A stretch of DNA of 64,000 nt from an uncultured Coprobacillus sp. (GTDB taxonomy: Bacteria; Bacillota_I; Bacilli_A; RFN20; CAG-826): NCBI GenBank assembly GCA_964583155.1, contig CAZOUY010000005.1, forward strand, positions 7,698-71,697, written 5' to 3'. The notes under the pieces were generated by a model, which was not told where the DNA came from, did not search any database, and was given only the letters and a program-made list of their open reading frames with translations. Both the position numbers and the translations under genes were made by a program. Positions 14,536 to 48,356 of this stretch are shown one piece after another. How positions within the stretch are numbered: the stretch's first letter is position 1; each line of letters opens with the position of its first letter.

Positions 14536-16857
14536 ATGGAAAAATGGATTTCCCAAATTGAAGATGCTTTGATCATTGCTCCAAGTACGGAACATCCTTT
14601 TTTCTTATGGCTTCATGAGCGTTATCCATCGTTATCCTTTAAGCTGATTACCAAGGAAGAAGTATTAAATAGCTATTATGGCAAACTAAAAAAGGAGGCC
14701 TTACTTAAATATTTATCGTGGCATCCGGAGTTATCCTTATCTCTAGCAAAATTATATATTGACGAAGCGATGATGATCAAAAAAGATGATATTAACCCAC
14801 AAGTCCATCATCTTTGGCAAGTTAAAGAGGAACTTCAAAAAAATCATCTTATCGAGGTGAAAAAGTATTTTTCTTATTATTTACATCACCAGAAGATTGT
14901 CTTATATGGTTATGATTACGATCAGGAATTACAGGGCCTTTTTTTAGATGAGAAAATCGTCTATCGGTATTTAGACTTCAATTATCAGCCTAGATCATTA
15001 TCCGTCAATGTTTATCAAAATATCGATGATGAAATTGCGGATGTCTTACAAAAAATAATTGCCTTACATCAAAGCGGTGTCTCCTTAAATAAGATTTTTC
15101 TTTATGTTCGGCAAGAGGTATACTATTATCCTTTAATCAAGCTCGCTAAGGATTTCGCTATCCCGATAGAGAATCCTTTTCAAGAGAGTCTTTTATTGCT
15201 TAAGGAAAGCCAAGATCTCTTACGGTTATTTGAAAAAGAAGGAACCCTAGGAGCAATTGAAAATGCAAGTGAAGTCGCCTTATTTTTAAACGATATTTAC
15301 CAAAAATATAATTCTAATGCGTTTTCAAATGAGCGGTGGGGTGAAATCTTTACGTATTTTTTAAATCAGCAGAAGCTTCCGATTAGCCATTATGAGGAAG
15401 AACTGACATTCACGCAAAGAAGCCTATTTTCAGATGATGAATATGTTTTTGTCTTAGGCTTTGAGCAAAATAGCTTTCCGTTAATCCATCAAGATAACAG
15501 TTATCTCTCCGATGCCATCAAAGCTAAAATAGGACAAACGACATCCAAATTGATGAATAAACGCGAACAAAAAATGGTGGAAACGTTACTATTTGCCAAT
15601 CAAAACGTCTTTTTATCATATAAAAAAGAAGCGCTTGATGGAATTCATCAGCCATCTATTCTTATTAAATCGTGGAATCTTTTGGAGGTCCCTTTTAGCC
15701 ATCGCTTGGATTGTTATTCCTTGCAATATGCTCAAAAAAGATGGGGGCAGTTACGTGACTATGAGCGAAAATACGGAACCTTCTTAAGTGAAACCACCGC
15801 TTATAAAGATATGGAGAAGCCCGATTATTTGACCTATGATTCTTCATTTACGAAGAGTCATCATTTCGCTATCGACCAGAATATTATTCATTCATACACA
15901 GCTTTAAGCACCTACGCTCAATGCCCATATAAATACTATTTATCCTATGTTTTAAAGTTGGATAGCTTTAAAGAAAACTTTTATAGTAAGCTTGGAACCC
16001 TTGCTCACCAAATTTTAGAGCATAATTATGACGATAATCCTGATTATGATGCGTTATTCGCTTTAGTGAAATCAGAGCAAGAGTGGACTGATCAGGAGGC
16101 TATGCTTTTACAAAATCTGAAGGATGACATTCAAAAGCTATTTGAATTTAATCGTCAGCATTTCTCGCAAATGCAAAATCCTCATTGTTACTTGGAGCAA
16201 GAGTTTTGTGTTTCTCTTATCGATGAGCATCCTCTTTATCTCAAGGGCTTTATCGATAAGCTGGTTTTAACGGGTCCCCATCACGAATATGTGACGATTG
16301 TCGATTATAAAACCGGAAAGGATGCTTTTGATCCGCGTTTGCTTGAGTATGGATATTCCACACAATTGCCGATTTATGGTCTCCTTTTAAAAAATGATTT
16401 GCGTTTTCAAGATAAAAAGATAATTGGCGCTTATATTCAGCATGTTTTGCCTGAACGCGTGCTAGCGGGATCATGTCAAGCATTAAAGAAGGTCGAACGC
16501 TCCTTCTTATTGCAAGGTATAACGACGGACAATATTTCGCAACTTGCGACCTTTGATCCCACTTATGAGCAGTCCTGTTACATCAGGAATATGAAGATAA
16601 CCTCCAATGGCTTTTCGAAAAACAGTCAACTATTTTCCGAGGCCATCTGGGAGCAATATTTAGCGACGACGGAAGCCTTTATAAAAAAGACGGATGATGC
16701 CATTCGGCACAATCTTTTTCCTATTTCCCCTAAGCAAATCGGTGATAAGCGAGCATGTCAAAATTGCTCTTTTAAGGATATTTGCTTTGTCAAAGAAGAA
16801 AATGTCATCTTAATATCTTTGAAAAAGGAGGATGATAGCGATGCCGAGATGGACTAA
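14536..16857 (+). CDS. addB: Helicase-exonuclease AddAB subunit AddB/RexB, carrying a PD-(D/E)XK nuclease but no N-terminal Walker A
   Basis: The C-terminal nuclease motif GFIDKL...IVDYKTGK and the Cys cluster CQAL...CQNCSFKDIC match the AddB Fe-S cluster. The gene sits immediately upstream of addA. Confidence 0.7.
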   Translation: MEKWISQIEDALIIAPSTEHPFFLWLHERYPSLSFKLITKEEVLNSYYGKLKKEALLKYLSWHPELSLSLAKLYIDEAMMIKKDDINPQVHHLWQVKEELQKNHLIEVKKYFSYYLHHQKIVLYGYDYDQELQGLFLDEKIVYRYLDFNYQPRSLSVNVYQNIDDEIADVLQKIIALHQSGVSLNKIFLYVRQEVYYYPLIKLAKDFAIPIENPFQESLLLLKESQDLLRLFEKEGTLGAIENASEVALFLNDIYQKYNSNAFSNERWGEIFTYFLNQQKLPISHYEEELTFTQRSLFSDDEYVFVLGFEQNSFPLIHQDNSYLSDAIKAKIGQTTSKLMNKREQKMVETLLFANQNVFLSYKKEALDGIHQPSILIKSWNLLEVPFSHRLDCYSLQYAQKRWGQLRDYERKYGTFLSETTAYKDMEKPDYLTYDSSFTKSHHFAIDQNIIHSYTALSTYAQCPYKYYLSYVLKLDSFKENFYSKLGTLAHQILEHNYDDNPDYDALFALVKSEQEWTDQEAMLLQNLKDDIQKLFEFNRQHFSQMQNPHCYLEQEFCVSLIDEHPLYLKGFIDKLVLTGPHHEYVTIVDYKTGKDAFDPRLLEYGYSTQLPIYGLLLKNDLRFQDKKIIGAYIQHVLPERVLAGSCQALKKVERSFLLQGITTDNISQLATFDPTYEQSCYIRNMKITSNGFSKNSQLFSEAIWEQYLATTEAFIKKTDDAIRHNLFPISPKQIGDKRACQNCSFKDICFVKEENVILISLKKEDDSDAEMD

Positions 16858-19800
16858 AGAACAGGAACAAGCGATCTATATTCGCGATGGCAATGTGATC
16901 GTTTCCGCCGGGGCCGGTTCGGGCAAAACAGCGGTTTTAACGGAGCGTGTCTATCAAATGATTAAAGAGGGTTATGGCCTTGATGAGTTTGTGGTTTTGA
17001 CCTTTACCAATGCAGCGGCCTTCGAGATGCGGGAACGAATTAGAAATAAATTGCTAAATGATGAAGGACTCCAAGAATTAGCATCTGAAGTCGATACCAG
17101 CTATATTATGACCTTTGATGCTTTTGCTTTATCGTTAGTGAAAAAATATCATTATCTTTTGGAATTGGATCAGGATATTTCCATCAGCGATGAATCACTC
17201 GTCAAGGTGCAAAAGTATAAAGAGCTACAAACGATTTTGGATGAATTATACGCGCATCCCACTTTCGCATTTCAGAGCTTTGTAAAGCGCTTCTTATTGC
17301 GAGATGATCGACTTTTGCGGGATTATATTTTACGAATCGATCAGATGATTGATCTCAAGATAGATGAAGAGGCATTTTTTCAAAATTATCTCCATGACTA
17401 TTTCAATATCGATAAAATCAAAGCCGATCTTCATGAGTTGTTTTTGATAGTTAAGTCAGAAATCGACGATTTAATCGCGGCTACTGATGATTTGGAAAAT
17501 GAAATTGATCATGAAAGAATCAGGAACTCTTTTGAACCCTTTGGTCGCATCATGAATTTTAATGACCTATATAACGCTTTATTGGGGTATCAATTTCCGC
17601 GAATGCCGCGCGGAAAGAATATCGAAATCAGCGATGAGGATAAAATACTCCGTGAAAAAATCAAAAAGCAAATGAAAAAGATTCAAGAGATATCACTTTT
17701 GGGGGATGAACAAACGGTTATTGATAATTATCTATCGACTCAAGATGATGCTATGCTTTGTTTAGAAATCACCAAAAAATTACGCTTACGAATCAAAGAG
17801 TTTAAAAAGAAAAAGCATATTTTTACTTTCAACGATATCGCTAAATATGCTTTGATAGTTATCGATCATCCGCTTGTCCAAGAGGAATTCCAAAAAAAGA
17901 TTCGGGCGGTAATGGTCGATGAATATCAAGATACCTCTGATATTCAAGACTGCTTTTTAAGTAAATTAGCCCGAAATAATCTTTACATGGTCGGCGATAT
18001 TAAACAATCAATCTATCGCTTTCGGAACGCTAATTGTCAGCTGTTTTTAGAAAAATATGAGCGTTATGCTAAATTGGATGGGGGCGTGAAGATCGATTTA
18101 AATCAGAATTTCCGTTCGCGCCCGGAAGTAATTCAGGATATCAACCATATTTTCGCTCGCATCATGCATCTTCATTGTGGAGGGGCGAACTACTTGAAGG
18201 ATCATATTATTATCGCCGGAAATAAGTCTTATCTTGAGCAGGGGGCTTCATCTAAGAACTATCATCTTGATTTTAATGAATATGCCAATGAGGGCGATCA
18301 GGATGAATACGAAGCTCGTCTCGTTGCGGAGGATATCGGGCGTAAGGTCCATCATTTTCCGATTTTTGAAAAGGATAGTGGTGTGTTTCATGATGCCAAC
18401 TATCGCGATTTTGTTATTCTCGTCGATCGAAAAACGAAATTTGATCTTTATAAGAGGGTCTTTGAAGAATACCATATTCCGGTGAGCATCGAAAAGGATG
18501 AGGATTTGACTAGTTCGCAGGCCGTTATCGTTTTGCAAAATCTTTTACGCGTTTATTATGGCATCGAGCAGCAGGTCTTCGATGAAAGCTTTGAGCATGC
18601 CTATGCCTCCGTTTATCGAAGCTTTCTTTATCATGGTGACGATCTTGAATTAGAACGGATTATAAAAGAAAAGCAGCTCCAAAATGATGAATTGTATCAG
18701 CAAATTGAAGTGATTGTGCATAAAATGCACGGCCATTCATTATCGGCCCAAATCCGTTGCTTATTGCTCGATTTTGATTTCGAATATCGACTATTAAGAA
18801 TCGGAAATATCACTCTCAATGAAAAGAAAATTGAGCAGCTTTTGTCCGCGGTATCCGCGATGGAAAAAATTGGATATACTATGGAGGATTTTTTAGATTA
18901 TTTGACGAATTTGAATTCTTTTTCTTTGGAATTGAAATCCGCATTCCAGGATGATGGAAGCAATTCTGTACGCATAATGAGCATTCATAAATCCAAAGGC
19001 TTGGAATTTCCTATCGTCTATTATTGTGGACTCGCTAAGGCCTTTAATAATCCGGAATTACAAACGCTTTTTATGGCCTCTAAAGAATACGGGCTCATCG
19101 TACCTACGAGTCAACAAGGAATACCGGACACGCTTTATCATTTCCTAATCAAAAGGAAAGAGCGGAGCGAAGAATTAAGCGAAAAAATCCGGCTTCTGTA
19201 TGTAGCGTTAACACGTGCTAAAGAAAAGATGATCGTTTTTTATCCGCAAGAAAAGGATTCTCCTTTAACATTGATTCAAAGTCAATCTCTCGGTGATTTA
19301 TTTCATTTTGCTGACTTAGATCCTAAACTTCGGCATCACGTGAATTTAACCGATGAAAGACAAGATGTTATGTCTTCATCCGTCAATCATATTTCACATG
19401 TCGCGCCCATAGTGTTTAAAAATCATCATTTTTCTTTTGTTATGAAGGAACAGAAAGCGCGCCCATCCTTAGTGGCAACGGACGTTGAGCAGGAGCTTTT
19501 GGATTTTGGGCAGGAACTGCATTTCTTACTAGAAATTATCGATTGGCGGAATCCCGATTTGGATTTCATCAAGGACCATCATCAACGCGAATATATGAAC
19601 AGATTTCTTCAAAGTGAGATCTATAAATCGCATCGAAATGACCGGATTTATCATGAATACGCTTATTATGATGATGCAGATGGCACGCGCGGAATTATCG
19701 ATCTTTTGTTAGTGAACGATCAAGAAACGACGATAATCGATTTTAAAACGAAAATCATCGATGAAGAAAAATATCATTCTCAGCTTGAGGCGTATCGGCG

Positions 19801-19882
19801 TTATATTCATAAAGTATTTAAGCGACCATGCCGGACATATTTATATTCCATTATCGATGGCATCGCCTTGGAGATTAAATAA
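16841..19882 (+). CDS. addA: ATP-dependent helicase/nuclease subunit AddA (UvrD-like, SF1)
   Basis: Motif I GAGSGKT near the N-terminus. UvrD-like motifs VDEYQDTS and FRSRPEV are present. The C-terminal RecB-type nuclease is IIDLLLV...IIDFKT. A GGAGG RBS lies before the ATG at 16841. Confidence 0.85.
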   Translation: MPRWTKEQEQAIYIRDGNVIVSAGAGSGKTAVLTERVYQMIKEGYGLDEFVVLTFTNAAAFEMRERIRNKLLNDEGLQELASEVDTSYIMTFDAFALSLVKKYHYLLELDQDISISDESLVKVQKYKELQTILDELYAHPTFAFQSFVKRFLLRDDRLLRDYILRIDQMIDLKIDEEAFFQNYLHDYFNIDKIKADLHELFLIVKSEIDDLIAATDDLENEIDHERIRNSFEPFGRIMNFNDLYNALLGYQFPRMPRGKNIEISDEDKILREKIKKQMKKIQEISLLGDEQTVIDNYLSTQDDAMLCLEITKKLRLRIKEFKKKKHIFTFNDIAKYALIVIDHPLVQEEFQKKIRAVMVDEYQDTSDIQDCFLSKLARNNLYMVGDIKQSIYRFRNANCQLFLEKYERYAKLDGGVKIDLNQNFRSRPEVIQDINHIFARIMHLHCGGANYLKDHIIIAGNKSYLEQGASSKNYHLDFNEYANEGDQDEYEARLVAEDIGRKVHHFPIFEKDSGVFHDANYRDFVILVDRKTKFDLYKRVFEEYHIPVSIEKDEDLTSSQAVIVLQNLLRVYYGIEQQVFDESFEHAYASVYRSFLYHGDDLELERIIKEKQLQNDELYQQIEVIVHKMHGHSLSAQIRCLLLDFDFEYRLLRIGNITLNEKKIEQLLSAVSAMEKIGYTMEDFLDYLTNLNSFSLELKSAFQDDGSNSVRIMSIHKSKGLEFPIVYYCGLAKAFNNPELQTLFMASKEYGLIVPTSQQGIPDTLYHFLIKRKERSEELSEKIRLLYVALTRAKEKMIVFYPQEKDSPLTLIQSQSLGDLFHFADLDPKLRHHVNLTDERQDVMSSSVNHISHVAPIVFKNHHFSFVMKEQKARPSLVATDVEQELLDFGQELHFLLEIIDWRNPDLDFIKDHHQREYMNRFLQSEIYKSHRNDRIYHEYAYYDDADGTRGIIDLLLVNDQETTIIDFKTKIIDEEKYHSQLEAYRRYIHKVFKRPCRTYLYSIIDGIALEIK

Positions 19883-26166: not shown

Positions 26167-27285
26167 ATGGACAATAAGGAATTGTATCTCAATAGAAAAA
26201 ATTTTGATTTAATCTGTCGCTTCTTAAAGATTCCTGATAATGTTGATCTGGAGTTTCTTTATAAGTGCTATTATCAAGTGGTTGAAGCCCTTATTGCTAT
26301 GTTGGAGAGCCAAAATATTCCTCTTTTAGGAAAAATTCAACCTCCGGTTATCACTGCTTATATTCTAAATGAGCATCTCTATAGCGTCGCCGGGCTTGAT
26401 GATAACAAGCGCCACGAGATGGAAAATAATGAAAAATATGTCAAAAAGCTTTGTTCCATCGCTCTAGATAAGTATTTTACGCTCGGTCATCTACGATATG
26501 AAGAAGGCTTGTTAACGGATCGTTATTATCCACCGATCACCCTCATTCAGCTATATACAAGCTATGTTTTGCATCTTTTGAAAAAATTCGCACAGAAGAG
26601 CCCCAGTCAAACGCTGATGGTCGATATTTTACATAAAGCCTTCATGATGAGCGATTGCATCACCAATCTTTTGGTCACCGGCTTTGAAACCGAGGCTTTT
26701 TCCACATGGCGGACCCTTCATGAAACAGAATGCAATGCGATTATCATCTTCAAATATGGACAACCGATCATCAATGCTTATCTTCGTCATATCACCTATG
26801 GATTGGCTTTTCGAAATGTTTTGGGAAGCGCCGAAGAGCAGGATCAGGTTTTTGCGGAGATTAAAGCTAAAATGAAATCTTTGGGGCTCAAGAGCAAGGA
26901 TATGAAAAGATTCATCGAGTGTGGATGGCTATATAGTATTCCGGATCTTGATAAATACCCTGATTTCCGCCTTAATTTCCGTAATGGCACCGAATATATC
27001 GCCGGCCTATCGGGAATGAACAGCCGGTATGAAATGTCAAGTGAGATCGCCCATTCATCGCCATTATTGATCTATTCGAATCGTGAATTCTTCTTTTATC
27101 TTTCCATCGTCTCGCTTTATGAGTCCTTCCTGCGCATGGAGGCTCTCTTTAACGAAATATATTCGGCGACCATGAGCGAAAAAGAAAAACAAGAATATCA
27201 GTTGATGCGTGATACTTATCTCCCGCAATTAAAAATTGTCTTGGATATTGAAAGCCATCGCCTTTCCAAAATGACGAATAAATAA
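26167..27285 (+). CDS. Hypothetical protein (372 aa)
   Basis: An AGGAGG RBS lies upstream. No recognisable catalytic motifs. Confidence 0.45.
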   Translation: MDNKELYLNRKNFDLICRFLKIPDNVDLEFLYKCYYQVVEALIAMLESQNIPLLGKIQPPVITAYILNEHLYSVAGLDDNKRHEMENNEKYVKKLCSIALDKYFTLGHLRYEEGLLTDRYYPPITLIQLYTSYVLHLLKKFAQKSPSQTLMVDILHKAFMMSDCITNLLVTGFETEAFSTWRTLHETECNAIIIFKYGQPIINAYLRHITYGLAFRNVLGSAEEQDQVFAEIKAKMKSLGLKSKDMKRFIECGWLYSIPDLDKYPDFRLNFRNGTEYIAGLSGMNSRYEMSSEIAHSSPLLIYSNREFFFYLSIVSLYESFLRMEALFNEIYSATMSEKEKQEYQLMRDTYLPQLKIVLDIESHRLSKMTNK

Positions 27286-40715: not shown

Positions 40716-41237
40716 ATGCTCCATATTATTTTATATCAACCGGAAATTCCTGCCAATACGGGAAATATTATGCGAACCTGTAAAGCCATAAATGCCACGC
40801 TTCACATCATTGGTCCTTTGACATTTTCTTTAGAAGAAAAATCGTTGAAAAGGGCCGGAATGGATTATATTGAAGGCTTGACAATGAAAATATATGAATC
40901 ATACGTTGATTTTTGTCAAAAGAATCCGAATGCGGATATCTATTATATCAGTCGCTATGGCGAAAAGACATATTCACAAGCGGATTTCACGCATATTGCC
41001 CATACCTATTATTTGATGTTTGGACGAGAATCGATGGGGATTCCGCATGATATTCTTAATGATCATCTCGATCGATGCCTAAGGATTCCGATGGTAGCGA
41101 GCGCGAGAAGCCTCAATCTTTCGAACTGTGTGGCGATTGTCGCCTATGAAGTCATGAGACAGCAGGGCTTTTATGGATTGAGCACCAAGGAAGCGATTAA
41201 GGGGGAAGATTTTTTATTGAAGGAGAAAGGTAAATAA
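40716..41237 (+). CDS. trmL: tRNA (cytidine34/U34-2'-O)-methyltransferase, SpoU family
   Basis: LHIILYQPEIPANTGNIMRTC and a SPOUT fold length of 173 aa. Confidence 0.75.
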   Translation: MLHIILYQPEIPANTGNIMRTCKAINATLHIIGPLTFSLEEKSLKRAGMDYIEGLTMKIYESYVDFCQKNPNADIYYISRYGEKTYSQADFTHIAHTYYLMFGRESMGIPHDILNDHLDRCLRIPMVASARSLNLSNCVAIVAYEVMRQQGFYGLSTKEAIKGEDFLLKEKGK

Positions 41238-42608
41238 CGAGTCATCGATCTTATTTAAATGCAGCGTTTGATAATGATTGAGCTGTACAAGACCGGATTT
41301 GGATGTTTTTTTCACCTGATTAATCGGAGTATAAATGACATCGCCATCGGATAGATGCGCTAGCTTAAGGGCTAACGAGGCGGCATAAATAAGGACTTCC
41401 TTATTGGGATTGCTATCAAAAATAACGACATGAGCGCCTTGATGATTTTGAACGTGCAGGAAGATATCGTTTTTGCGCGCTAAATGAAAGGTCAAGGTAT
41501 CATTTTGGAGATTGTTTTTGCCATAGCCGATTTTTACGCCCTGAAAGTAGCAAAAATATGGTTGAATCGCTGGATGATGGGGGAACTTTTTCTTAGAGGC
41601 CTTCTTTAAATAACCATTATTTACTAGTTCTTCTTCCATCTCCTGCAAATCACGTTCGGAGGCTCCTTCCCATTGCGATTCCAAAATACTAAAATAATCG
41701 ATTTCCGCTTTGGTCTCCGCCATTTGTCTTGTTAAATGCTCTTCGGCATTCCGAGCTTTTTGGTATTTCTTATAATATAGAAGCGCATTGTCTTTTGCGG
41801 ATTTATCCGCATCAAGAGGAATGACATAATCAAAAATGCGGAATTCGTTTTGCTCAGGATGCACCTCATCAAGATAGGTGATGAGCAAATCTCCGTATTC
41901 CTTCCACATGTCCTTTTTTTGCGACATGAGCAATTCTTGATTTTGGCGTTGCCATTTTTTTAACGCTGATTTTTTATGCGATTTGATTAACGATAAAATC
42001 GCATTAAACTTATCCTTTTTGCGCTTGTCTTCGATGCTTTTTCGGTAATCATCAAAAAGGGATAGATAATCAAACGCGATGGGGTCGATATTTTCCTTCC
42101 ATTGCACGTTTTTTTCAGGACAAGTATAGGTTAATCCCTTTAACAAAGGGCGTTTGCTTTCCAAATCACCATGACGATAGACAAGTAAAATCCTTCGATC
42201 CTTATCCAGCAAAAGCATATTAGCATTACCGGTAATCAATTCAATCACCAAGTAGCGGCGGTTTGTTTCATAGACATCATTTGTACATTGTAAGGTCCAA
42301 ACCACGATCCGATCATTATTCCATAATTCAAGATTTTCGACATAGGCATGATCAAGCTCTTTCCGCAATGAAAGAAAAAATGGTGACGCGAGAGTGCTGC
42401 TTGGATCCTTAAATTCAGTAAGACTTATAAAAGGATGAGAAGATTGTAAGGAAATAATCACCCGTTGGGTCTTATTTTTCGAAAGAGAAAAGAAGAAATC
42501 AGTTTTCGAATATTCAACGAATTTACCAAGATAAGAGCCAAGAGCTTTTTCTTTTATTTCTTGAACAATATAGAGCAGATTACCAGCATTTAAAGACATT
42601 TTCATCAC
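41214..42608 (-). CDS. rqcH: NFACT family protein (RqcH/FbpA-like ribosome quality control)
   Basis: An N-terminal NFACT-N-like pattern. The C-terminal NFACT-R/DUF814 motif is VHVQNHQGAHVVIF...TPINQVKK. At 464 aa it is shorter than canonical RqcH. Confidence 0.5.
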   Translation of the reverse strand: MMKMSLNAGNLLYIVQEIKEKALGSYLGKFVEYSKTDFFFSLSKNKTQRVIISLQSSHPFISLTEFKDPSSTLASPFFLSLRKELDHAYVENLELWNNDRIVVWTLQCTNDVYETNRRYLVIELITGNANMLLLDKDRRILLVYRHGDLESKRPLLKGLTYTCPEKNVQWKENIDPIAFDYLSLFDDYRKSIEDKRKKDKFNAILSLIKSHKKSALKKWQRQNQELLMSQKKDMWKEYGDLLITYLDEVHPEQNEFRIFDYVIPLDADKSAKDNALLYYKKYQKARNAEEHLTRQMAETKAEIDYFSILESQWEGASERDLQEMEEELVNNGYLKKASKKKFPHHPAIQPYFCYFQGVKIGYGKNNLQNDTLTFHLARKNDIFLHVQNHQGAHVVIFDSNPNKEVLIYAASLALKLAHLSDGDVIYTPINQVKKTSKSGLVQLNHYQTLHLNKIDDSLFTFLLQ

Positions 42609-42786: not shown

Positions 42787-45700
42787 ATGAAGTATGAAAA
42801 CGCACTTTTAAAGGCAACAGCTGAAACCATCGATGAGTTTTATGAATTAATTGCGCAAGGATATAATATTTTTAATATCACCTTAAATATTGATGACGAG
42901 GAAAAGAAAAAGCTATTTGAAAGGGCATCGATGAGAAAACACCCTAATGATGATTACATTTTAGGATATTGCTACTATAATGGTGTTGGAATAGAACGGA
43001 ATTATAGTCAAGCATTTGAGCATTTTAAAATATCCGCTAATGATGGCGATTTAAGAGCACAAAATAATCTTGGCTTGTGTTATTATGATGGCCAGGGCGT
43101 TCCACAAAGCTATGAAGAAGCAGTAAAATGGTATAGATTAGCGGCAGATCAAGAAAATGCAAATGCACAATATAATCTCGGCTGTTGCTATTATAATGGT
43201 TTAGGTGTCTCACAAAGCTATGAAGAAGCAGTAAAATGGTATAGATTAGCGACAAATCAAGGACTTGCAAGAGCACAATTAAATCTTGGCAATTGCTATT
43301 ATAATGGTCAAGGTGTTCCACAGAGTTATGAAGAAGCAGTCAAGTGGTGTAGATTAGCGGCAGATCAAGGAAATGCAAGAGCACAATATACTCTCGGTGT
43401 TTGCTATTATAATGACCGAGGCGTTCCACAAAGCTATGAAGAAGCAGTAAAGTGGTATAGATTAGCGGCAGATCAAGGATATGCTGATGCACAATATAAT
43501 CTTGGCAATTGCTATTATAAAGGCCAAGGTGTTCCACAAAGCTATGAAGAAGCCGTAAAATGGTATAGATTAGCGGCAAATCAAGGAGATGCTGATGCAC
43601 AAAATAATCTCGGCCTTTGTTATGATAATGGCCAAGGTGTTTCGCAAAGCTATGAAGAAGCCGTGAAGTGGTATAGATTAGCCGCAAATCAAGGAAATGC
43701 AAGAGCTCAATATAATCTTGGCAATTGCTATTATAAAGGCCAAGGTGTTTCACAAAGCTATGAAGAAGCCATGAAGTGGCATAGATTAGCGGCAGATCAA
43801 GGATATGCTGATGCACAATATAATCTTGGCAATTGCTATTATAAAGGCCAAGGTGTTCCACAAAGCTATGAAGAAGCCGTAAAATGGTATAGATTAGCGG
43901 CAGATCAAGGGCTTGTAGAAGCTCAATATAATCTAGCTTTTTGCTATAAGTATGGTCAAGGTGTTCCACAAAGCTATGAAGAAGCCGTGAAGTGGTATAG
44001 ATTAGCCGCAAATCAAGGAGATGCTGATGCACAAAATAATCTCGGCCTTTGTTATGATAATGGCCAAGGTGTTTCGCAAAGCTATGAAGAAGCCGTGAAG
44101 TGGTATAGATTAGCCGCAAATCAAGGAAATGCAAGAGCTCAATATAATCTTGGCAATTGCTATTATAAAGGCCAAGGTGTTTCACAAAGCTATGAAGAAG
44201 CCATGAAGTGGTATAGATTAGCGGCAGATCAAGGAAATGCAAGAGCTCAATATAATCTTGGTGTTTGCTATGATAATGGCCAAGGCGTTCCACAAAGCTA
44301 TGAAGAAGCCGTGAAGTGGTATAGATTAGCCGCAAATCAAGGAAATGCAAGAGCTCAATATATCCTAGCTCTTTGTCATGCTAATGACAAAGATATGGCA
44401 CAAAGTTATGAAGAAGCAGCAAAGTGGTGGACATTAGCCGCAAATCAAGGAAATGCAAGAGCACAATATAATCTCGGTGTTTACTATGCTAAAGGCCAAG
44501 GTGTTCCACAAGATTATAAAGAAGCCGTGAAGTGGTATAGATTAGCGGCAGATCAAGGATATGCTGATGCACAATATAATCTCGGAGTTTGCTATGCTAA
44601 AGGCCAAGGTGTCTTACAAGATTATGAAGAAGCATCCAAGTGGTGGACATTAGCTGCAAATCAAGGACATGCAGATGCTCAATATGATCTCGGTGTTTGC
44701 TATGCTAAAGGCCTAGAATTGCCACAGAGTTATGAAGAAGCATCCAAATGGTGGAAATTAGCTGCAAATCAAGGGCTTGCAGATGCTCAATATGATCTCG
44801 GTTTTTGCTATGCTAAAGGCCAAGGTGTCTCACAAGATTATGAAGAAGCATCCAAGTGGTGGAAATTAGCGGCGAATCAAGGAAATGCAGAAGCTCAATA
44901 TAATCTAGCTCTTTGTTATAATAAAGGTCAAGGTGTTCCACAAAGTTATGAAGAAACAGTAAAGTGGTATAGATTATCTGCAGAGCAAGGACATGCAGGC
45001 GCACAAAATAATCTCGGTGTTTGCTATTATAATGGCCTAGGCTTGCCACAGAGTTATGAAGAAGCCGTGAAGTGGTGGACATTATCGGCAAATCATGGAC
45101 TTCCAATTGCTCAATATAATCTCGACGTTTGCTATGAGAATGGTCAAGGCATTCCACAAATTTATGAGGAAACTATTCAATTAGAGAGGAATATAGGAAA
45201 AAAAGAGTCTCAATATTATGATGAACGAGCAAAATTGTTGAAATCAGCGGCAGATCAAGGATATGCTGATGCACAATATAATCTCGGTGTTTGCTATGAG
45301 AATGGCAAAGGAGTTCCACAAAGTTATGAAGAAGCCGTGAAATGGTATAGATTAGCGGCAGATCAAGGACATGCAGGTGCTCAATACAATCTCGGCGTTT
45401 GCTATGAAAATGGTTTCGGCATTCCACAAAGTGATGATGAAGCCGTTAAATTGTATAAAAAAGCGGCAGATCAAGGCGATAAAGAAGCACAACTTGCGTT
45501 AGATAAAATATTAACAGAATTAGAAATAGAATATAAATTTAACAATGTAGGAAAAAGTTATGATGTATTCGTGTCATGGAATCATAACGATAAGGATTTT
45601 AAAAATCGATTGGTTGATGGAATAGAAAATAAGAATAATATTAATAATGATGGAGAAGCATTATATACTCATTATCGTGCTTGGGAAAGTGATCGAGATG

Positions 45701-47607
45701 CAAGTGGGGTCATAGATTTATGTATTGAAAGAGCTATTAAGTCTTCTAAGTTTTTTTTGATTATTCTTTCAAAATATTCTCTAAAAAGCAAATGGGTAAA
45801 AAAGGAACTCGAAATAGCGTTACAATGTGTGAAAAACGGGGAATTGACTGAAGAAAATTTGATCATTGTCTATTTGGACAGTGAAGATTTTAACGTCAGT
45901 GAAGAAATTGCAAAAATAAGCGATGAAAATGATCCATTCAAAAAGCTAATTACTTTTGCTTTAGCAGGTAAGTATTCCGATAAAAATGATGATCGAATAG
46001 TGACTAATGTCTGTGCCCAAATCCAACAAGGAATGGCAAAAACAGCGATACGTAACTATATCTATCAACATACGAAAGAAAATGAATTTAAATACAACGT
46101 TCAAAGTCAGTATAGTGATAATAATATGTCAGGGAATCCCGTCGATGCTTTCATGACATATGAAGATGGATATATTGATCGGAATATTTATGATGAAAAA
46201 GATAATGGCTTTAGCATTGATGAAGTGATCAATAGTAAAGAAAACCTCATCATAGTGGGTGAAGGAGGAATCGGTAAAAGTCTTTATCTATCCTATTTAA
46301 TGTATAAGCATTTGGCCATTAATAAGTTTTATGTCAGAATCAACTTAATTAACTATGTCGGTTTACTTAAAAGTATTAATTCCATTGATCAATTGTTAAA
46401 TACAGAACTAGAAACCTATCTTAATGGTAAAGTTGGTGTTGCTAAAGATAATTATCTTCCAACAATTAGAGAAAATGGGGCATCAATAACGATTATTATG
46501 GATGGCTTAGAGGAAATAGATGATGAAAATAATGAAAAGTTATGTAAACTTATTAAAGCATATCGTGCGGCAAATACATGGGATCGATTTATTTTTACAT
46601 CGCGAAATGAGAATAGTAGGCCAGTAAATGGAATAAAAGAAATTTTTATTAGCAAAGATATCCGTGTATTACATCTAGAAAGATTAACATACGAAGAGCA
46701 AAAAAGTTTATTTGATAATATTGCCAAAAGAATTATAAAGGATCCAAAGCCAGGTGAGATAGGACCTAATCGAGAAAGACTTAAAATAGATTTTTTTGAA
46801 GAATTAAAAAAGATAAGTGATGAAATAACAGGTAATCCATTCTTGTTATCAAATCTTATTTTCATTTACCTTTTTAGAAGTGGCGAGGATAAAAATAAAG
46901 ACCTACCAAAAACGAGATATGAAATTATTAAACAAATCGTCGATATCTTTATTCATAAGCTTGAAGATAATCGAGGAGTATTATCATTATTCAAATATAA
47001 AGATTACTTAACACCACAAAGAATGGAGAAGCTACTAGGAAATATAGCTTTACGTAAATTACAGGGCGCACGTCAAAACTTCAAGGAATTGATTTATGAA
47101 TACTTAAGTAAAGAAGAGAGAAGCGCTAAAGAACATAATATAGAAAAAGTAGCTAAAGAAATATATGAATATCTGGCGCGACGAGCGATCATTTATGAAA
47201 ATAAGATTTCTCACGATCTTTTCACATCCTTTTTTGCTACTTACTATATTTATTTAAATGTCTATCAGCTAAAAAATAAGCATGATGTTTATTATATAGG
47301 CTTTCAAAAAGAGGGCAAGGAATATTTTAAATATCGGTTAGAGGAGTTTAAGAAACATATTGAACGATGGGCTGATGTTCCGATTGAAATTATTATGCAG
47401 CTTGATTATGAGATAAGAAATTTAAATGATCAGGAGATGGATGATAGCAATATGAGTAAAACAGTTTTCAAAGAAACATTAGAACTAGCAAAAGATGGTT
47501 TACCGGATTTTGTAAAGATGATGCAGGAATATCTTGATAGACAGGGAACATTCTACTTTGAAACATTTATTAGGCAATTATTATCACTCATGGAAGAGAA
47601 GGTATAA
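42787..47607 (+). CDS. 1606-aa Sel1-repeat/TIR/NACHT (STAND NTPase) protein, a candidate NLR-like antiviral defense protein
   Basis: About 23 tandem 36-aa Sel1-like repeats (consensus AQYNLGNCYYKGQGVPQSYEEAVKWYRLAADQG) span roughly aa 55-910.
The TIR domain starts at YDVFVSW, with IERAIKSSKFFLIILSKYSLKSKWVKKELEIAL matching the plant and bacterial TIR alphaC-to-betaD region including the catalytic Glu.
The NACHT domain has Walker A GEGGIGKS, Walker B IIMDGLEEID, FIFTSR and GNPFLLS motifs. Confidence 0.8.
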   Translation: MKYENALLKATAETIDEFYELIAQGYNIFNITLNIDDEEKKKLFERASMRKHPNDDYILGYCYYNGVGIERNYSQAFEHFKISANDGDLRAQNNLGLCYYDGQGVPQSYEEAVKWYRLAADQENANAQYNLGCCYYNGLGVSQSYEEAVKWYRLATNQGLARAQLNLGNCYYNGQGVPQSYEEAVKWCRLAADQGNARAQYTLGVCYYNDRGVPQSYEEAVKWYRLAADQGYADAQYNLGNCYYKGQGVPQSYEEAVKWYRLAANQGDADAQNNLGLCYDNGQGVSQSYEEAVKWYRLAANQGNARAQYNLGNCYYKGQGVSQSYEEAMKWHRLAADQGYADAQYNLGNCYYKGQGVPQSYEEAVKWYRLAADQGLVEAQYNLAFCYKYGQGVPQSYEEAVKWYRLAANQGDADAQNNLGLCYDNGQGVSQSYEEAVKWYRLAANQGNARAQYNLGNCYYKGQGVSQSYEEAMKWYRLAADQGNARAQYNLGVCYDNGQGVPQSYEEAVKWYRLAANQGNARAQYILALCHANDKDMAQSYEEAAKWWTLAANQGNARAQYNLGVYYAKGQGVPQDYKEAVKWYRLAADQGYADAQYNLGVCYAKGQGVLQDYEEASKWWTLAANQGHADAQYDLGVCYAKGLELPQSYEEASKWWKLAANQGLADAQYDLGFCYAKGQGVSQDYEEASKWWKLAANQGNAEAQYNLALCYNKGQGVPQSYEETVKWYRLSAEQGHAGAQNNLGVCYYNGLGLPQSYEEAVKWWTLSANHGLPIAQYNLDVCYENGQGIPQIYEETIQLERNIGKKESQYYDERAKLLKSAADQGYADAQYNLGVCYENGKGVPQSYEEAVKWYRLAADQGHAGAQYNLGVCYENGFGIPQSDDEAVKLYKKAADQGDKEAQLALDKILTELEIEYKFNNVGKSYDVFVSWNHNDKDFKNRLVDGIENKNNINNDGEALYTHYRAWESDRDASGVIDLCIERAIKSSKFFLIILSKYSLKSKWVKKELEIALQCVKNGELTEENLIIVYLDSEDFNVSEEIAKISDENDPFKKLITFALAGKYSDKNDDRIVTNVCAQIQQGMAKTAIRNYIYQHTKENEFKYNVQSQYSDNNMSGNPVDAFMTYEDGYIDRNIYDEKDNGFSIDEVINSKENLIIVGEGGIGKSLYLSYLMYKHLAINKFYVRINLINYVGLLKSINSIDQLLNTELETYLNGKVGVAKDNYLPTIRENGASITIIMDGLEEIDDENNEKLCKLIKAYRAANTWDRFIFTSRNENSRPVNGIKEIFISKDIRVLHLERLTYEEQKSLFDNIAKRIIKDPKPGEIGPNRERLKIDFFEELKKISDEITGNPFLLSNLIFIYLFRSGEDKNKDLPKTRYEIIKQIVDIFIHKLEDNRGVLSLFKYKDYLTPQRMEKLLGNIALRKLQGARQNFKELIYEYLSKEERSAKEHNIEKVAKEIYEYLARRAIIYENKISHDLFTSFFATYYIYLNVYQLKNKHDVYYIGFQKEGKEYFKYRLEEFKKHIERWADVPIEIIMQLDYEIRNLNDQEMDDSNMSKTVFKETLELAKDGLPDFVKMMQEYLDRQGTFYFETFIRQLLSLMEEKV
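42949..45516 (+). repeat. Tandem 108-bp coding repeats (Sel1-like units), with near-identical copies and duplicated higher-order blocks of about 420 bp
   Basis: A stretch such as caaagctatgaagaagccgtgaagtggtatagattagccgcaaatcaagg recurs many times. The segment 43560-43800 is nearly identical to 43980-44220. Confidence 0.85.
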
Positions 47608-47771: not shown

Positions 47772-48356
47772 ATGCAAAAAGGGCTTCTTATTATCCTAAG
47801 CGGACCGAGTGGTGTTGGCAAAGGCACAATTAGACGGAAAGTGATGGAAGATTTGTCTCTTAATTTAGTTTATTCAATTTCGATGACTACTCGTAAACCC
47901 CGAAATCAAGAGGTAGAGGGCGAGGATTATTTTTTCGTGTCCGATGAAGAATTTGATCGAAATGTGGAAAACGGTAATTTACTGGAATGGGCGTCCTTTG
48001 TCGGCAATCGCTATGGGACCCCGAAGGATTATGTCGAGAGGTTGCGCGCTGAAGGAAAGAATGTCTTTTTGGAAATTGAGGTCGATGGGGCGCGCCAGGT
48101 AATGCAAAAGTGCCAAGGATCCGATGTCTTTTCAATCTTCCTGATTCCTCCATCTTTAGAAGCGCTAGAGCAAAGAATTCGCGGTCGGAGAAGTGAAAGT
48201 GAAGAGATTATTCGCGAAAGATTGGAGAAAGCCAAACGGGAAATGGGATTGAAATTCCACTATCATTATGTCGTTTTGAATGACGATGTTGATCGAGCGG
48301 CCAATGAGATTAAGGGCATTATTCGTTCGAAGATAAACGCAGTTATTCATAAATAA
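47772..48356 (+). CDS. gmk: Guanylate kinase
   Basis: P-loop ILSGPSGVGKGT and the guanylate kinase motifs. Confidence 0.85.
   Translation: MQKGLLIILSGPSGVGKGTIRRKVMEDLSLNLVYSISMTTRKPRNQEVEGEDYFFVSDEEFDRNVENGNLLEWASFVGNRYGTPKDYVERLRAEGKNVFLEIEVDGARQVMQKCQGSDVFSIFLIPPSLEALEQRIRGRRSESEEIIRERLEKAKREMGLKFHYHYVVLNDDVDRAANEIKGIIRSKINAVIHK

What the first reader, a model, noticed from the sequence alone, without database searches (positions are those of the whole stretch)
42949..45516. Nucleotide-level homogenised 108-bp tandem repeats with duplicated multi-repeat blocks
The 36-codon Sel1 units are near-identical at the DNA level, not only the protein level. Blocks of about four units recur almost exactly; for example 43560-43800 is nearly identical to 43980-44220.

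This indicates recent expansion or concerted evolution by unequal recombination. Because every unit is 108 bp, gain or loss of units stays in frame, so the sensor arm can vary in length between strains.

It also makes the region prone to assembly collapse or expansion, so the true copy number may differ from this assembly.

The antisense frames are open across the array only because of the repeat composition.
Basis: seen in the sequence. Interest (0 to 1): 0.6.

Follow-up and report, generated by a model that had tools for sequence, protein, structure and literature searches.

The report
Expanding Sel1 repeat array in TIR-NTPase gene
The region is a real run of about 23 in-frame 108-base Sel1-repeat units forming the front half of a horizontally acquired, immune-receptor-like bacterial gene. 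The units copy and reshuffle at the DNA level much as the sensor repeats of fungal immune receptors do, which is interesting but belongs to a known kind of evolution.

Summary
The tandem array is real. It holds 21 units in a strict 108-bp register (42940-45207), then a 54-bp register shift, then two more units (45262-45477). All lie inside one intact 1606-aa ORF (42787-47607, +).

"Near-identical" overstates most pairs: units 2-20 average 80% DNA identity, and only three pairs reach 98-100%. One block really is duplicated: 43525-43803 matches 43957-44235 (279 bp, 98.6%) at a spacing of 432 bp.

The DNA-level relatedness is significant. Units share the same codon at 77% of identical residues, against 61% after within-array permutation and 44% from background codon usage. 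Units cluster by gene rather than by position, and the edge units are the most divergent. Four codon columns change faster than the synonymous rate.

The protein is Sel1 array, then TIR, then a NACHT-like STAND NTPase. It sits as a low-GC3 single-gene insertion between rqcH and gmk.

Related alleles with 94-96% identical TIR-NTPase DNA carry arrays of 720-1536 bp with shuffled interiors. One pair differs only by a single 108-bp unit.

No close relative of this allele exists, so copy-number variation and assembly accuracy at this locus remain untested. The pattern matches the known "highly internally conserved repeat" evolution of NLR sensors.

The parts
42787..47607 (+). Single intact ORF of 1606 aa: N-terminal cap, Sel1 array, TIR domain, NACHT-like STAND NTPase
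   Evidence: ORF list and translation. Pfam Sel1, TIR_2, TIR and ThsB_TIR score above their cut-offs. GC3 is 0.23-0.24, against 0.42-0.44 in flanking genes.
42787..42939 (+). Non-repeat N-terminal cap (about 51 aa); no signal-peptide-like hydrophobic stretch
   Evidence: Translation. Similar caps occur in P0013-P0017.
42940..43047 (+). Unit 1, a divergent capping Sel1 unit (mean 53% DNA identity to units 2-20)
43048..45099 (+). Units 2-20: 19 units of exactly 108 bp with no indels. Mean pairwise DNA identity is 80%; the core units 5-13 average 87%.
43457..43779 (+). Source copy of the recent three-unit duplication (units 6-8)
   Evidence: Exact tracts of 122 bp (+324) and 204 bp (+432)
43781..44211 (+). 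Second copy of the duplication, interrupted by one extra unit-length segment (43903-44007, most of unit 10)
   Evidence: The 279-bp block has 4 mismatches, 3 of them synonymous and 1 His/Tyr.
45100..45261 (+). Degenerate unit 21 plus a 54-bp register shift (IQLERNIGKKESQYYDERAKLLKS)
   Evidence: spacing of 162/270
45262..45477 (+). Units 22-23. Unit 22 is 89% identical to units 6 and 9 despite lying beyond the break.
   Evidence: second Tandem Repeats Finder row
45559..45885 (+). TIR domain (aa 925-1033) with an invariant SxWVxxE glutamate (aa 1007)
   Evidence: Pfam; invariant columns S97, W99, V100 and E103 in the 17-sequence alignment
46180..47604 (+). STAND NTPase module: Walker A GEGGIGKS, Walker B DGLEE, helical and winged-helix domains. 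No C-terminal repeat domain.
   Evidence: Invariant G254, G256, G257, G259, K260, D335, E339 and R369. NACHT or NPHP3_N hits in 10 of 17 family members. The AF2 model matches RPP1, NOD2, Avs4 and EfAvs5.
43340..44350 (-). Antisense ORF (336 aa), a by-product of unit homogeneity and not a gene
41214..42608 (-). Flanking rqcH/NFACT gene (left border of the insertion)
   Evidence: It lies next to gmk in the closest genome, L001.
47772..48356 (+). Flanking gmk (right border of the insertion), followed by priA

Best explanation
The array is a genuine, recently expanded tandem array of 108-bp (36-codon) Sel1-repeat units. It encodes the N-terminal half of a cytoplasmic, horizontally acquired Sel1-TIR-NACHT-like STAND NTPase.

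At the DNA level, units share exact tracts of 25-204 bp. These tracts allow out-of-register recombination or replication slippage and gene conversion. Each event adds, removes or swaps whole 108-bp units, so the reading frame is always kept. The interior of the array is homogenised and reshuffled, while the capping units diverge.

A few surface codons vary faster than synonymous sites: columns 1, 3, 10 and 13 of the unit xAxAQYNLGxCYxxGQGVxQSYEEAVKWYRLAAxQG.

By analogy with Avs, bNACHT and plant TIR-NLR proteins, the repeat solenoid is most likely the ligand-binding and autoinhibitory part. Trigger binding would release NTP-dependent oligomerisation, bringing the TIR domains together to consume NAD+ or make a signal, giving abortive infection. 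The repeat dynamics would then serve to change binding specificity and length quickly.

Shown: the array, its DNA-level relatedness, the domain identities, the conserved catalytic motifs, the insertion, and length and shuffling variation among homologous alleles.

Inferred: the recombination mechanism, the sensor role, and the immune function.
For: - Array anatomy.
- Column-specific codon sharing is 0.767 against a permutation mean of 0.607 (sd 0.005).
- Pooled dS is 0.47 with overall dN/dS of 0.37. Columns 1, 3, 10 and 13 have dN 0.84, which is 1.8 times the array-wide dS (bootstrap 1.4-2.1).
- pS increases with inter-unit distance. Edge units are the most divergent.
- Within-gene unit identity is 72%, against 52% between genes.
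- There are 46 exact tracts of 25 bp or more between in-register units.
- Homolog alleles: a one-unit indel on an otherwise identical gene; arrays of 720-1536 bp beside TIR-NTPase DNA that is 94-96% identical; collinear caps but shuffled interiors; 108-bp periodicity at 80-93% in homolog DNA.
- Domains: Pfam, invariant TIR Glu and Walker motifs, and fold matches to RPP1 (E=3e-8), NOD2, Avs4 and EfAvs5.
- Insertion: rqcH, gmk and priA are contiguous in L001, and GC3 drops across the gene.
- Precedent for this evolutionary regime in NLR repeats: PMC4986451, and bioRxiv 10.1101/2020.01.06.895854 for bacterial WD and TPR repeats.
Against: - No close relative of this allele was found. The best is 41-43% aa identity on the TIR-NTPase part. 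Copy-number polymorphism at this locus is therefore untested.
- The homolog alleles come from short-read metagenome assemblies, where repeat collapse can mimic unit loss.
- The hypervariable columns were chosen post hoc. They are also the generally non-consensus positions of Sel1 repeats, as shown by similar entropy profiles in other clades.
- The repeat array lies N-terminal to the effector, unlike characterised Avs, bNACHT and TNL receptors, so the sensor role is by analogy only.
- There is no significant PADLOC hit for the NTPase.
- Neighbourhoods are housekeeping genes, not defence islands.
Confidence: 0.72

Rival explanations
1. Assembly artefact: part of the array, especially the 43457-44211 duplicated block, was created or mis-sized by the assembler, and the true copy number differs.
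For: Exact repeats of 204 and 122 bp lie in register. Short-read assemblies are documented to fail on highly conserved NLR repeats (PMC11761791). The sequencing technology behind the window is unknown.
Against: - Twenty of the 23 units are unique sequences, at most 91% identical to any other unit.
- The frame is intact over 2.6 kb with zero indels.
- The duplicated block carries 4 substitutions, and its second copy is interrupted by a distinct unit.
- Assemblers usually collapse repeats rather than expand them.
- Homologs show the same 108-bp architecture.
Confidence: 0.1
2. The DNA similarity is only a side effect of strong protein-level constraint plus codon bias on an old, static Sel1 solenoid. 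There has been no recent duplication or concerted evolution.
For: Sel1 consensus residues are strongly conserved. GC3 is low (0.23), which narrows codon choice.
Against: - Codon identity exceeds every one of 1000 permutations that keep the array's own codon usage (0.767 against a maximum of 0.626).
- The same amino acid uses different fixed codons in different columns.
- Tracts are 100% identical over 204 bp.
- Units cluster by gene.
- Other long arrays in the family are only 32-49% self-identical.
Confidence: 0.03
3. The array does evolve by unit gain, loss and conversion, but it is not a ligand sensor. It serves as a scaffold, a spacer, an oligomerisation or autoinhibition module, or a cell-envelope or peptidoglycan-associated domain. 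Its length variation would then be neutral or merely tolerated.
For: - The array lies N-terminal to the effector, which is not the canonical sensor position.
- Sel1 domains are described as peptidoglycan-associating in some conflict systems (PMC7159879).
- Variable columns coincide with the generic non-consensus Sel1 positions.
Against: - There is no signal peptide or transmembrane segment.
- No other repeat or sensor domain exists in the protein, because the C-terminus ends with the NOD module.
- dN exceeds dS at four columns.
- C-terminal TPR/Sel1 repeats are essential for activation in Avs5 (PMC12931631).
- More distant relatives carry LRRs in place of the array.
Confidence: 0.15

Closest known systems
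Highly internally conserved (HIC) WD40, ANK and TPR repeats of fungal NLRs (Podospora HET-D/E/R and the NWD family; Dyrka et al. 2014, PMC4986451; PMC11761791)
   Same: - The repeat domain of a STAND/NLR protein, with units highly similar at the DNA level.
- Repeat-number polymorphism and unit shuffling between alleles.
- A few hypervariable positions per unit.
- Difficulty for short-read assembly.
   Different: - Bacterial rather than fungal, and Sel1 rather than WD, ANK or TPR.
- Internal identity is lower (72% aa overall, 81% in the core, against about 85% or more).
- The array is N-terminal to the effector instead of C-terminal to the NOD.
- There is no paralogous family in the window for inter-locus exchange.
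Bacterial NLR-like proteins with internally conserved WD or TPR repeats (noted in Dyrka et al., bioRxiv 10.1101/2020.01.06.895854)
   Same: A prokaryotic STAND protein whose repeat units are 80-90% identical; rapid diversification has been proposed for them.
   Different: Those are NB-ARC/TPR and NACHT/WD architectures, mostly from filamentous or multicellular bacteria. This one is Sel1-TIR-NACHT-like, in a Bacilli-like genome, with the opposite domain order.
Avs (AVAST) and bNACHT antiphage STAND proteins, especially Avs5 (SIR2-nSTAND3-TPR/Sel1; PMC12931631) and TIR-bearing bNACHTs (bioRxiv 10.1101/2022.07.19.500537)
   Same: - A single-gene system combining an NAD-targeting effector, a STAND NTPase and a helical repeat domain.
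- Weak nSTAND3 and NACHT similarity.
- Fold matches to Avs4 and EfAvs5.
   Different: - Repeats are at the N-terminus, before the effector.
- No PADLOC or NCBIfam model matches above noise.
- Function is untested.
Plant TIR-NLR receptors (RPP1, ROQ1)
   Same: The TIR domain directly precedes the NOD. RPP1 is the best fold match to the TIR-NOD module (E=3e-8, 640 aligned columns). The catalytic Glu is conserved.
   Different: The sensor there is a C-terminal LRR plus a post-LRR domain. Only 13-14% sequence identity, and TM-scores are low (0.27-0.34).
In-frame tandem-repeat length variation in Gram-positive surface proteins (alpha C/Rib family, M proteins); from my own knowledge, not tested here
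   Same: Long, near-identical, in-frame DNA repeats whose number changes by recombination or slippage.
   Different: Those are secreted, wall-anchored antigens. This protein has no signal peptide and is fused to TIR and an NTPase.

Membership tests
Sel1-like repeat (SLR, PF08238) | 36-residue helix-turn-helix units matching the Sel1 profile above the gathering score | tested here: met
   793.7 bits against a cut-off of 30.7, with 22 stretches. The family profile (alignment A1) matches solved Sel1 proteins such as 6ok3, 4bwr and SEL1L with E=1e-201 to 1e-77.
Sel1-like repeat (SLR, PF08238) | Folds as a continuous alpha-alpha solenoid | tested here: inconclusive
   The single-sequence AF2 model of aa 1-925 failed (pLDDT 38). 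The fold rests on sequence homology only.
TIR-domain NADase | TIR domain profile match above the cut-off | tested here: met
   TIR_2 40.6 bits (cut-off 28), TIR 30.2 (21.3), ThsB_TIR 28.7 (21.2)
TIR-domain NADase | Conserved catalytic glutamate in the SxWCxxE-type motif | tested here: met
   The motif SKWVKKELE is present. S97, W99, V100 and E103 (aa 1007) are invariant in 17 sequences.
TIR-domain NADase | NAD+ cleavage or signal production on oligomerisation | not testable with these tools
   Needs a biochemical assay.
STAND / NACHT-type NTPase (NLR-like) | Walker A, Walker B and sensor arginine | tested here: met
   GEGGIGKS, DGLEE and TSR are invariant.
STAND / NACHT-type NTPase (NLR-like) | Profile match above the curated cut-off for the window protein itself | tested here: not met
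   nSTAND3 scores 23.9-24.2 bits (cut-off 27.2) and NPHP3_N 18-22.5 (cut-off 24.8). However, 10 of 17 family members hit NACHT or NPHP3_N at E<=1e-3.
STAND / NACHT-type NTPase (NLR-like) | NBD-HD-WHD fold resembling solved NLR or Avs structures | tested here: met
   The AF2 model has pLDDT 75.9. Foldseek hits are RPP1 3e-8, NOD2 6e-7, Avs4 1e-6 and EfAvs5 3e-6. TM-scores are low (0.21-0.32) because the model is multi-domain.
STAND / NACHT-type NTPase (NLR-like) | Tripartite order: N-terminal effector, NOD, C-terminal repeat sensor | tested here: not met
   The repeats are N-terminal and the protein ends with the NOD module. The canonical order is seen only in more distant relatives such as P0091.
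Known antiphage systems in PADLOC / NCBIfam (Avs1-5, bNACHT, Thoeris, EruA) | Significant match to a system model | tested here: not met
   Only weak, TIR-level hits were found: PDC-S66 4.7e-6, ThsB 3e-4, mad8 9e-3, and EruA 23 bits against a cut-off of 1000.
HIC (highly internally conserved) NLR repeats, as defined in Dyrka et al. 2014 | More than 85% aa identity between repeats over at least 100 aa in total | tested here: inconclusive
   The whole array averages 72% aa. Core units 5-13 average 81%, with 28% of pairs above 85%. Three pairs are 97-100% identical. The criterion is met by a subset of units, not by the whole array.
HIC (highly internally conserved) NLR repeats, as defined in Dyrka et al. 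2014 | Repeat-number polymorphism between alleles | tested here: inconclusive
   Shown for homolog clades. No second allele of the window gene is available.
HIC (highly internally conserved) NLR repeats, as defined in Dyrka et al. 2014 | Diversifying selection on a few positions per unit | tested here: inconclusive
   Columns 1, 3, 10 and 13 have dN 0.84 against an array-wide dS of 0.47 (ratio 1.8, bootstrap 1.4-2.1). The columns were chosen post hoc, and no recombination-aware test was run.

The most novel reading that the evidence does not exclude
This would be a bacterial immune receptor with a permuted NLR layout (sensor repeats, then TIR effector, then NOD). Its Sel1 sensor would be kept evolvable by concerted evolution: unit gain, loss and shuffling plus hypervariable contact residues. 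That would make it the prokaryotic, Sel1-based counterpart of the fungal HET-E/D 'repeat-cassette' recognition system, and the window would carry its largest and most recently expanded example.
Probability: 0.35. Interest if true: 0.65.

Novelty: new variant of a known kind. Interest (0 to 1): 0.5.

Why it matters
If the Sel1 array is the sensor, this gene shows that bacteria can diversify an NLR-like receptor by cassette-like repeat reshuffling. That strategy is well documented only in fungi and has merely been suspected for bacterial WD and TPR NLRs.

The family is small, with 43 representatives at E<=1e-30 among 1.84 billion proteins. It places the repeats in front of the effector, which tests ideas about how STAND proteins are autoinhibited.

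Practically, the locus is a warning for assembly and annotation. Copy number here should not be trusted without long reads, and the long antisense ORFs should not be annotated as genes.

Tried and rejected
- Exact-protein lookup of the 1606-aa product: not on record.
- Searches for close relatives of the TIR-NTPase part found none, so no second allele of this gene could be compared. The searches covered GTDB genomes, JGI metagenomes and IMG/VR.
- Single-sequence AF2 of the Sel1 half (aa 1-925) failed with pLDDT 38. The hypervariable columns therefore could not be mapped onto a model. Their i, i+3/4, i+7 spacing on helix A is only an inference.
- A profile search of PDB with alignment A1 was dominated by the Sel1 columns and said little about the NTPase.
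- The Rfam scan of the window returned nothing.
- The promoter and terminator scan around the gene was uninformative.
- An antisense gene was rejected.
- A codon-bias explanation for the DNA similarity was rejected.
- Other Sel1 copies in the window that could act as conversion donors: none found.
- A defence-island context was not found for the window or for five homolog loci.
- A diversity-generating retroelement (DGR) was considered as the source of the hypervariable codons. It was not formally tested, because no reverse-transcriptase search of the window was made.
Full report
**What is at the coordinates**

The finding lies wholly inside one intact ORF, 42787-47607 on the + strand, encoding 1606 aa. 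Tandem Repeats Finder reports a 108-bp period over 43056-45171, with 19.6 copies, 82% matches and 0% indels. A second stretch covers 45246-45476.

In protein register there are 21 units at 42940+108k. The helix-B half of unit 21 is degenerate and introduces a 54-bp register shift (45154-45261). Two further units start at 45262 and 45370.

The unit consensus is xAxAQYNLGxCYxxGQGVxQSYEEAVKWYRLAAxQG. Pfam Sel1 scores 793.7 bits (E=3.7e-248) with 22 stretches.

**How similar the units are**

- Pairwise DNA identity among units 2-20 averages 80%, with a range of 67-100%. Protein identity averages only 72%.
- The core units 5-13 average 87% DNA identity.
- Capping unit 1 and degenerate unit 21 average 53% and 62%.
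- Only three pairs are near-identical: 7=11 (100%), 8~12 (99%) and 6~9 (98%).

"Near-identical" is therefore an overstatement for the array as a whole.

**The block duplication**

The best block is 43525-43803 against 43957-44235. It is 279 bp long, 98.6% identical, and the two copies lie 432 bp (four units) apart. Three of its four mismatches are synonymous and one is a His/Tyr change.

The longest exact tracts are 204 bp (43576-43779 = 44008-44211) and 122 bp (43457-43578 = 43781-43902). Together they show a three-unit segment (43457-43779) duplicated in tandem, with one extra unit-length piece (43903-44007) inside the second copy.

With the second block shifted by +12 the identity is 98.8%. 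The duplicated block is about 2.6-3 units recurring at a spacing of 3-4 units, and it is not one of many four-unit blocks.

**Is the DNA similarity more than protein constraint?**

Yes.

- Where two units have the same amino acid, they use the same codon in 76.7% of cases. The expectation is 43.7% from the codon usage of other genes in the window. It is 60.7 +/- 0.5% (maximum 62.6%) in 1000 permutations that keep the array's own usage.
- Codons are column-specific. Leu at column 31 is TTA in 19 of 19 units, while Leu at column 8 is CTC, CTT or CTA. Gly at columns 15, 17 and 36 prefers GGC, GGT and GGA.
- Pooled Nei-Gojobori values are pS 0.35 (dS 0.47) and pN 0.16, giving dN/dS of 0.37. Synonymous sites are therefore unsaturated but not fresh.
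- pS rises from about 0.30 for units up to 4 apart to more than 0.40 for units 10 or more apart.
- Forty-six exact tracts of 25 bp or more link in-register units. These are ample substrate for unequal recombination or slippage. That mechanism is established knowledge and was not tested here.

**Hypervariable positions**

Non-synonymous change is concentrated in columns 1, 3, 6, 10, 13, 14, 29, 30 and 34, where pS is near zero.

For columns 1, 3, 10 and 13, dN is 0.84 against an array-wide dS of 0.47. The ratio is 1.8, with a bootstrap range over units of 1.4-2.1.

This is suggestive of diversifying selection, with two cautions. The columns were chosen post hoc. They are also the generally variable Sel1 positions in other clades (Spearman 0.53-0.68 against the window profile).

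Their spacing on helix A (3, 6, 10, 13) fits one helical face. This is an inference, because the single-sequence AF2 model of the array failed (pLDDT 38).

**Antisense frames**

One antisense frame is open for 347 codons (43342-44383). In units 14-18 it is closed at the same position in each unit (stops at 44383+108k). A unit variant there (I infer the GCT-AAA, Ala-Lys, codon pair) creates the stop.

Synonymous reshuffling gives much shorter open runs, with a mean of 120 and a maximum of 250 codons. The long ORF is therefore a consequence of unit homogeneity. Its product has no meaningful family hit.

**What the gene is**

- After the array comes a TIR domain (aa 925-1033). TIR_2, TIR and ThsB_TIR all score above their cut-offs.
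- The SxWVxxE glutamate (aa 1007) is invariant.
- A P-loop NTPase follows, with invariant Walker A (GEGGIGKS), Walker B (DGLEE) and a sensor Arg.
- The window protein's own nSTAND3 and NPHP3_N hits fall just below their cut-offs. Ten of 17 family members do hit NACHT or NPHP3_N.
- An AF2 model of aa 905-1606 built with the family alignment has pLDDT 75.9. Its best Foldseek matches are the TIR-NLR RPP1 (E=3e-8, 640 columns), NOD2, Avs4 and EfAvs5.
- The protein ends with the NOD helical domains and has no C-terminal repeat domain. It also has no signal peptide.

The layout is therefore repeats-TIR-NOD, a permutation of the usual effector-NOD-repeats order.

No PADLOC or NCBIfam system model matches beyond weak TIR-level hits.

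**Genomic context**

The neighbours are housekeeping genes: rqcH/NFACT at 41214-42608 (-), gmk at 47772-48356, then priA and rsmB-like genes.

The closest genome found is a Bacilli MAG (L001), with PriA 53% identical. In it, rqcH, gmk and priA are contiguous with nothing between rqcH and gmk.

GC3 of the gene is 0.23-0.24, against 0.42-0.44 in gmk and priA. The gene is a single-gene horizontal insertion. No other Sel1 copy exists in the window.

**Comparison with homologs**

*Size of the family.*
- The word-indexed search found 17 relatives, all Sel1-TIR-NTPase, 940-1222 aa long, and at most 41% identical.
- The exhaustive HMMER search of 1.84 billion representatives found 43 at E<=1e-30.
- In almost all of these the TIR-NTPase module is C-terminal, behind an N-terminal extension of about 130-1250 aa. 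Where checked, that extension is Sel1.
- More distant hits have the module at the N-terminus with C-terminal repeats, for example P0091 with BspA-type LRRs.

*Clade sharing one genomic neighbourhood.* Among the five alleles whose DNA was fetched (P0001, P0002, P0005, P0007 and P0008):
- TIR-NTPase DNA is 94-96% identical (100% for the P0007/P0008 pair), yet the arrays span 720-1536 bp.
- The caps are collinear at 90-97% identity while the interiors are non-collinear.
- P0007 and P0008 differ by exactly one 108-bp unit and have 0 mismatches over 2823 bp.

*Other evidence.*
- A second clade has products of 837, 1222, 1253 and 1254 aa within one cluster at 90% identity.
- Homolog arrays also show 108-bp periodicity at 80-93%.
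- Window units resemble each other (86% best, 72% mean) more than any homolog unit (68% best, 52% mean).
- Across the family, internal unit identity ranges from 0.32 to 0.80. Other long arrays (P0037, P0043, P0045) are only 32-49% self-identical. The window combines length (21-23 units) with high conservation (0.72). This points to a recent lineage-specific expansion.

*Caveat.* The homolog alleles come from short-read metagenome assemblies. Individual copy numbers, especially the one-unit indel, could be collapse artefacts. The different unit sequences and orders cannot be.

**Relation to what is known**

High internal repeat conservation, repeat-number polymorphism, concerted evolution and a few positively selected positions are established for the WD, ANK and TPR domains of fungal NLRs (PMC4986451). 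Accurate reconstruction there requires long reads (PMC11761791).

The same pattern has been noted, without functional work, for WD and TPR repeats of bacterial NLRs (bioRxiv 10.1101/2020.01.06.895854). Repeat domains including Sel1-like motifs are essential for activation in Avs5 (PMC12931631).

The present case extends this regime in three ways: to Sel1 repeats, to a small TIR-STAND family with the repeats in front of the effector, and to a Bacilli-like genome.

**Verdict**

- Not shown: copy-number variation at this very locus, correctness of the assembly, the sensor role of the array, and any immune function.
- I rate it a new variant of a known kind, with moderate interest.

Noticed in passing
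window 9172-12057 (+): A 961-aa ORF with no Pfam family at E<=1e-5. It lies upstream of a metallophosphatase/5'-nucleotidase protein (12166-14523) and an AddAB-like nuclease-helicase pair (14536-19882).
   Followed up: no
L010 3835-6313; L011 3415-5893; L013 13937-16427; L014 5468-7958; L016 4379-6881: In the closest homolog clade, the Sel1-TIR-NTPase gene is always followed by three same-strand genes of about 243, 396 and 98 aa with no Pfam hit. They could be accessory partners or just conserved neighbours. They are absent from the window, where gmk follows.
   Followed up: partly
proteins P0087-P0101, e.g. P0091: More distant relatives of the TIR-NTPase module carry it at the N-terminus, with C-terminal repeats. 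P0091 is TIR-NTPase plus BspA-type LRR, the same order as plant TNLs. Both domain orders therefore exist around one NTPase lineage.
   Followed up: partly
L017 7799-9985 and 13776-15046: The homolog P0016 has a 728-aa ORF without Pfam hits ending 16 bp upstream of it. A HipA / HTH toxin-antitoxin-like pair lies immediately downstream.
   Followed up: no
window 45154-45261: A 54-bp (half-unit) register shift interrupts the array (IQLERNIGKKESQYYDERAKLLKS). Unit 22 beyond it is 89% identical to units 6 and 9, closer than to its own neighbours, which hints at conversion across the break. Comparable irregular segments occur in homolog arrays, with anchor spacings of 50, 66 and 70 aa.
   Followed up: partly
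window 42787-47607 against its flanks: GC3 is 0.23-0.24 across the whole gene, against 0.42-0.44 in gmk and priA. Overall GC of the TIR-NTPase half is 0.30, against 0.41 in the flanks. This indicates foreign origin.
   Followed up: yes
window 26167-27285 (+): A DUF5677-family protein (E=1.1e-6) lies among otherwise housekeeping genes.
   Followed up: no
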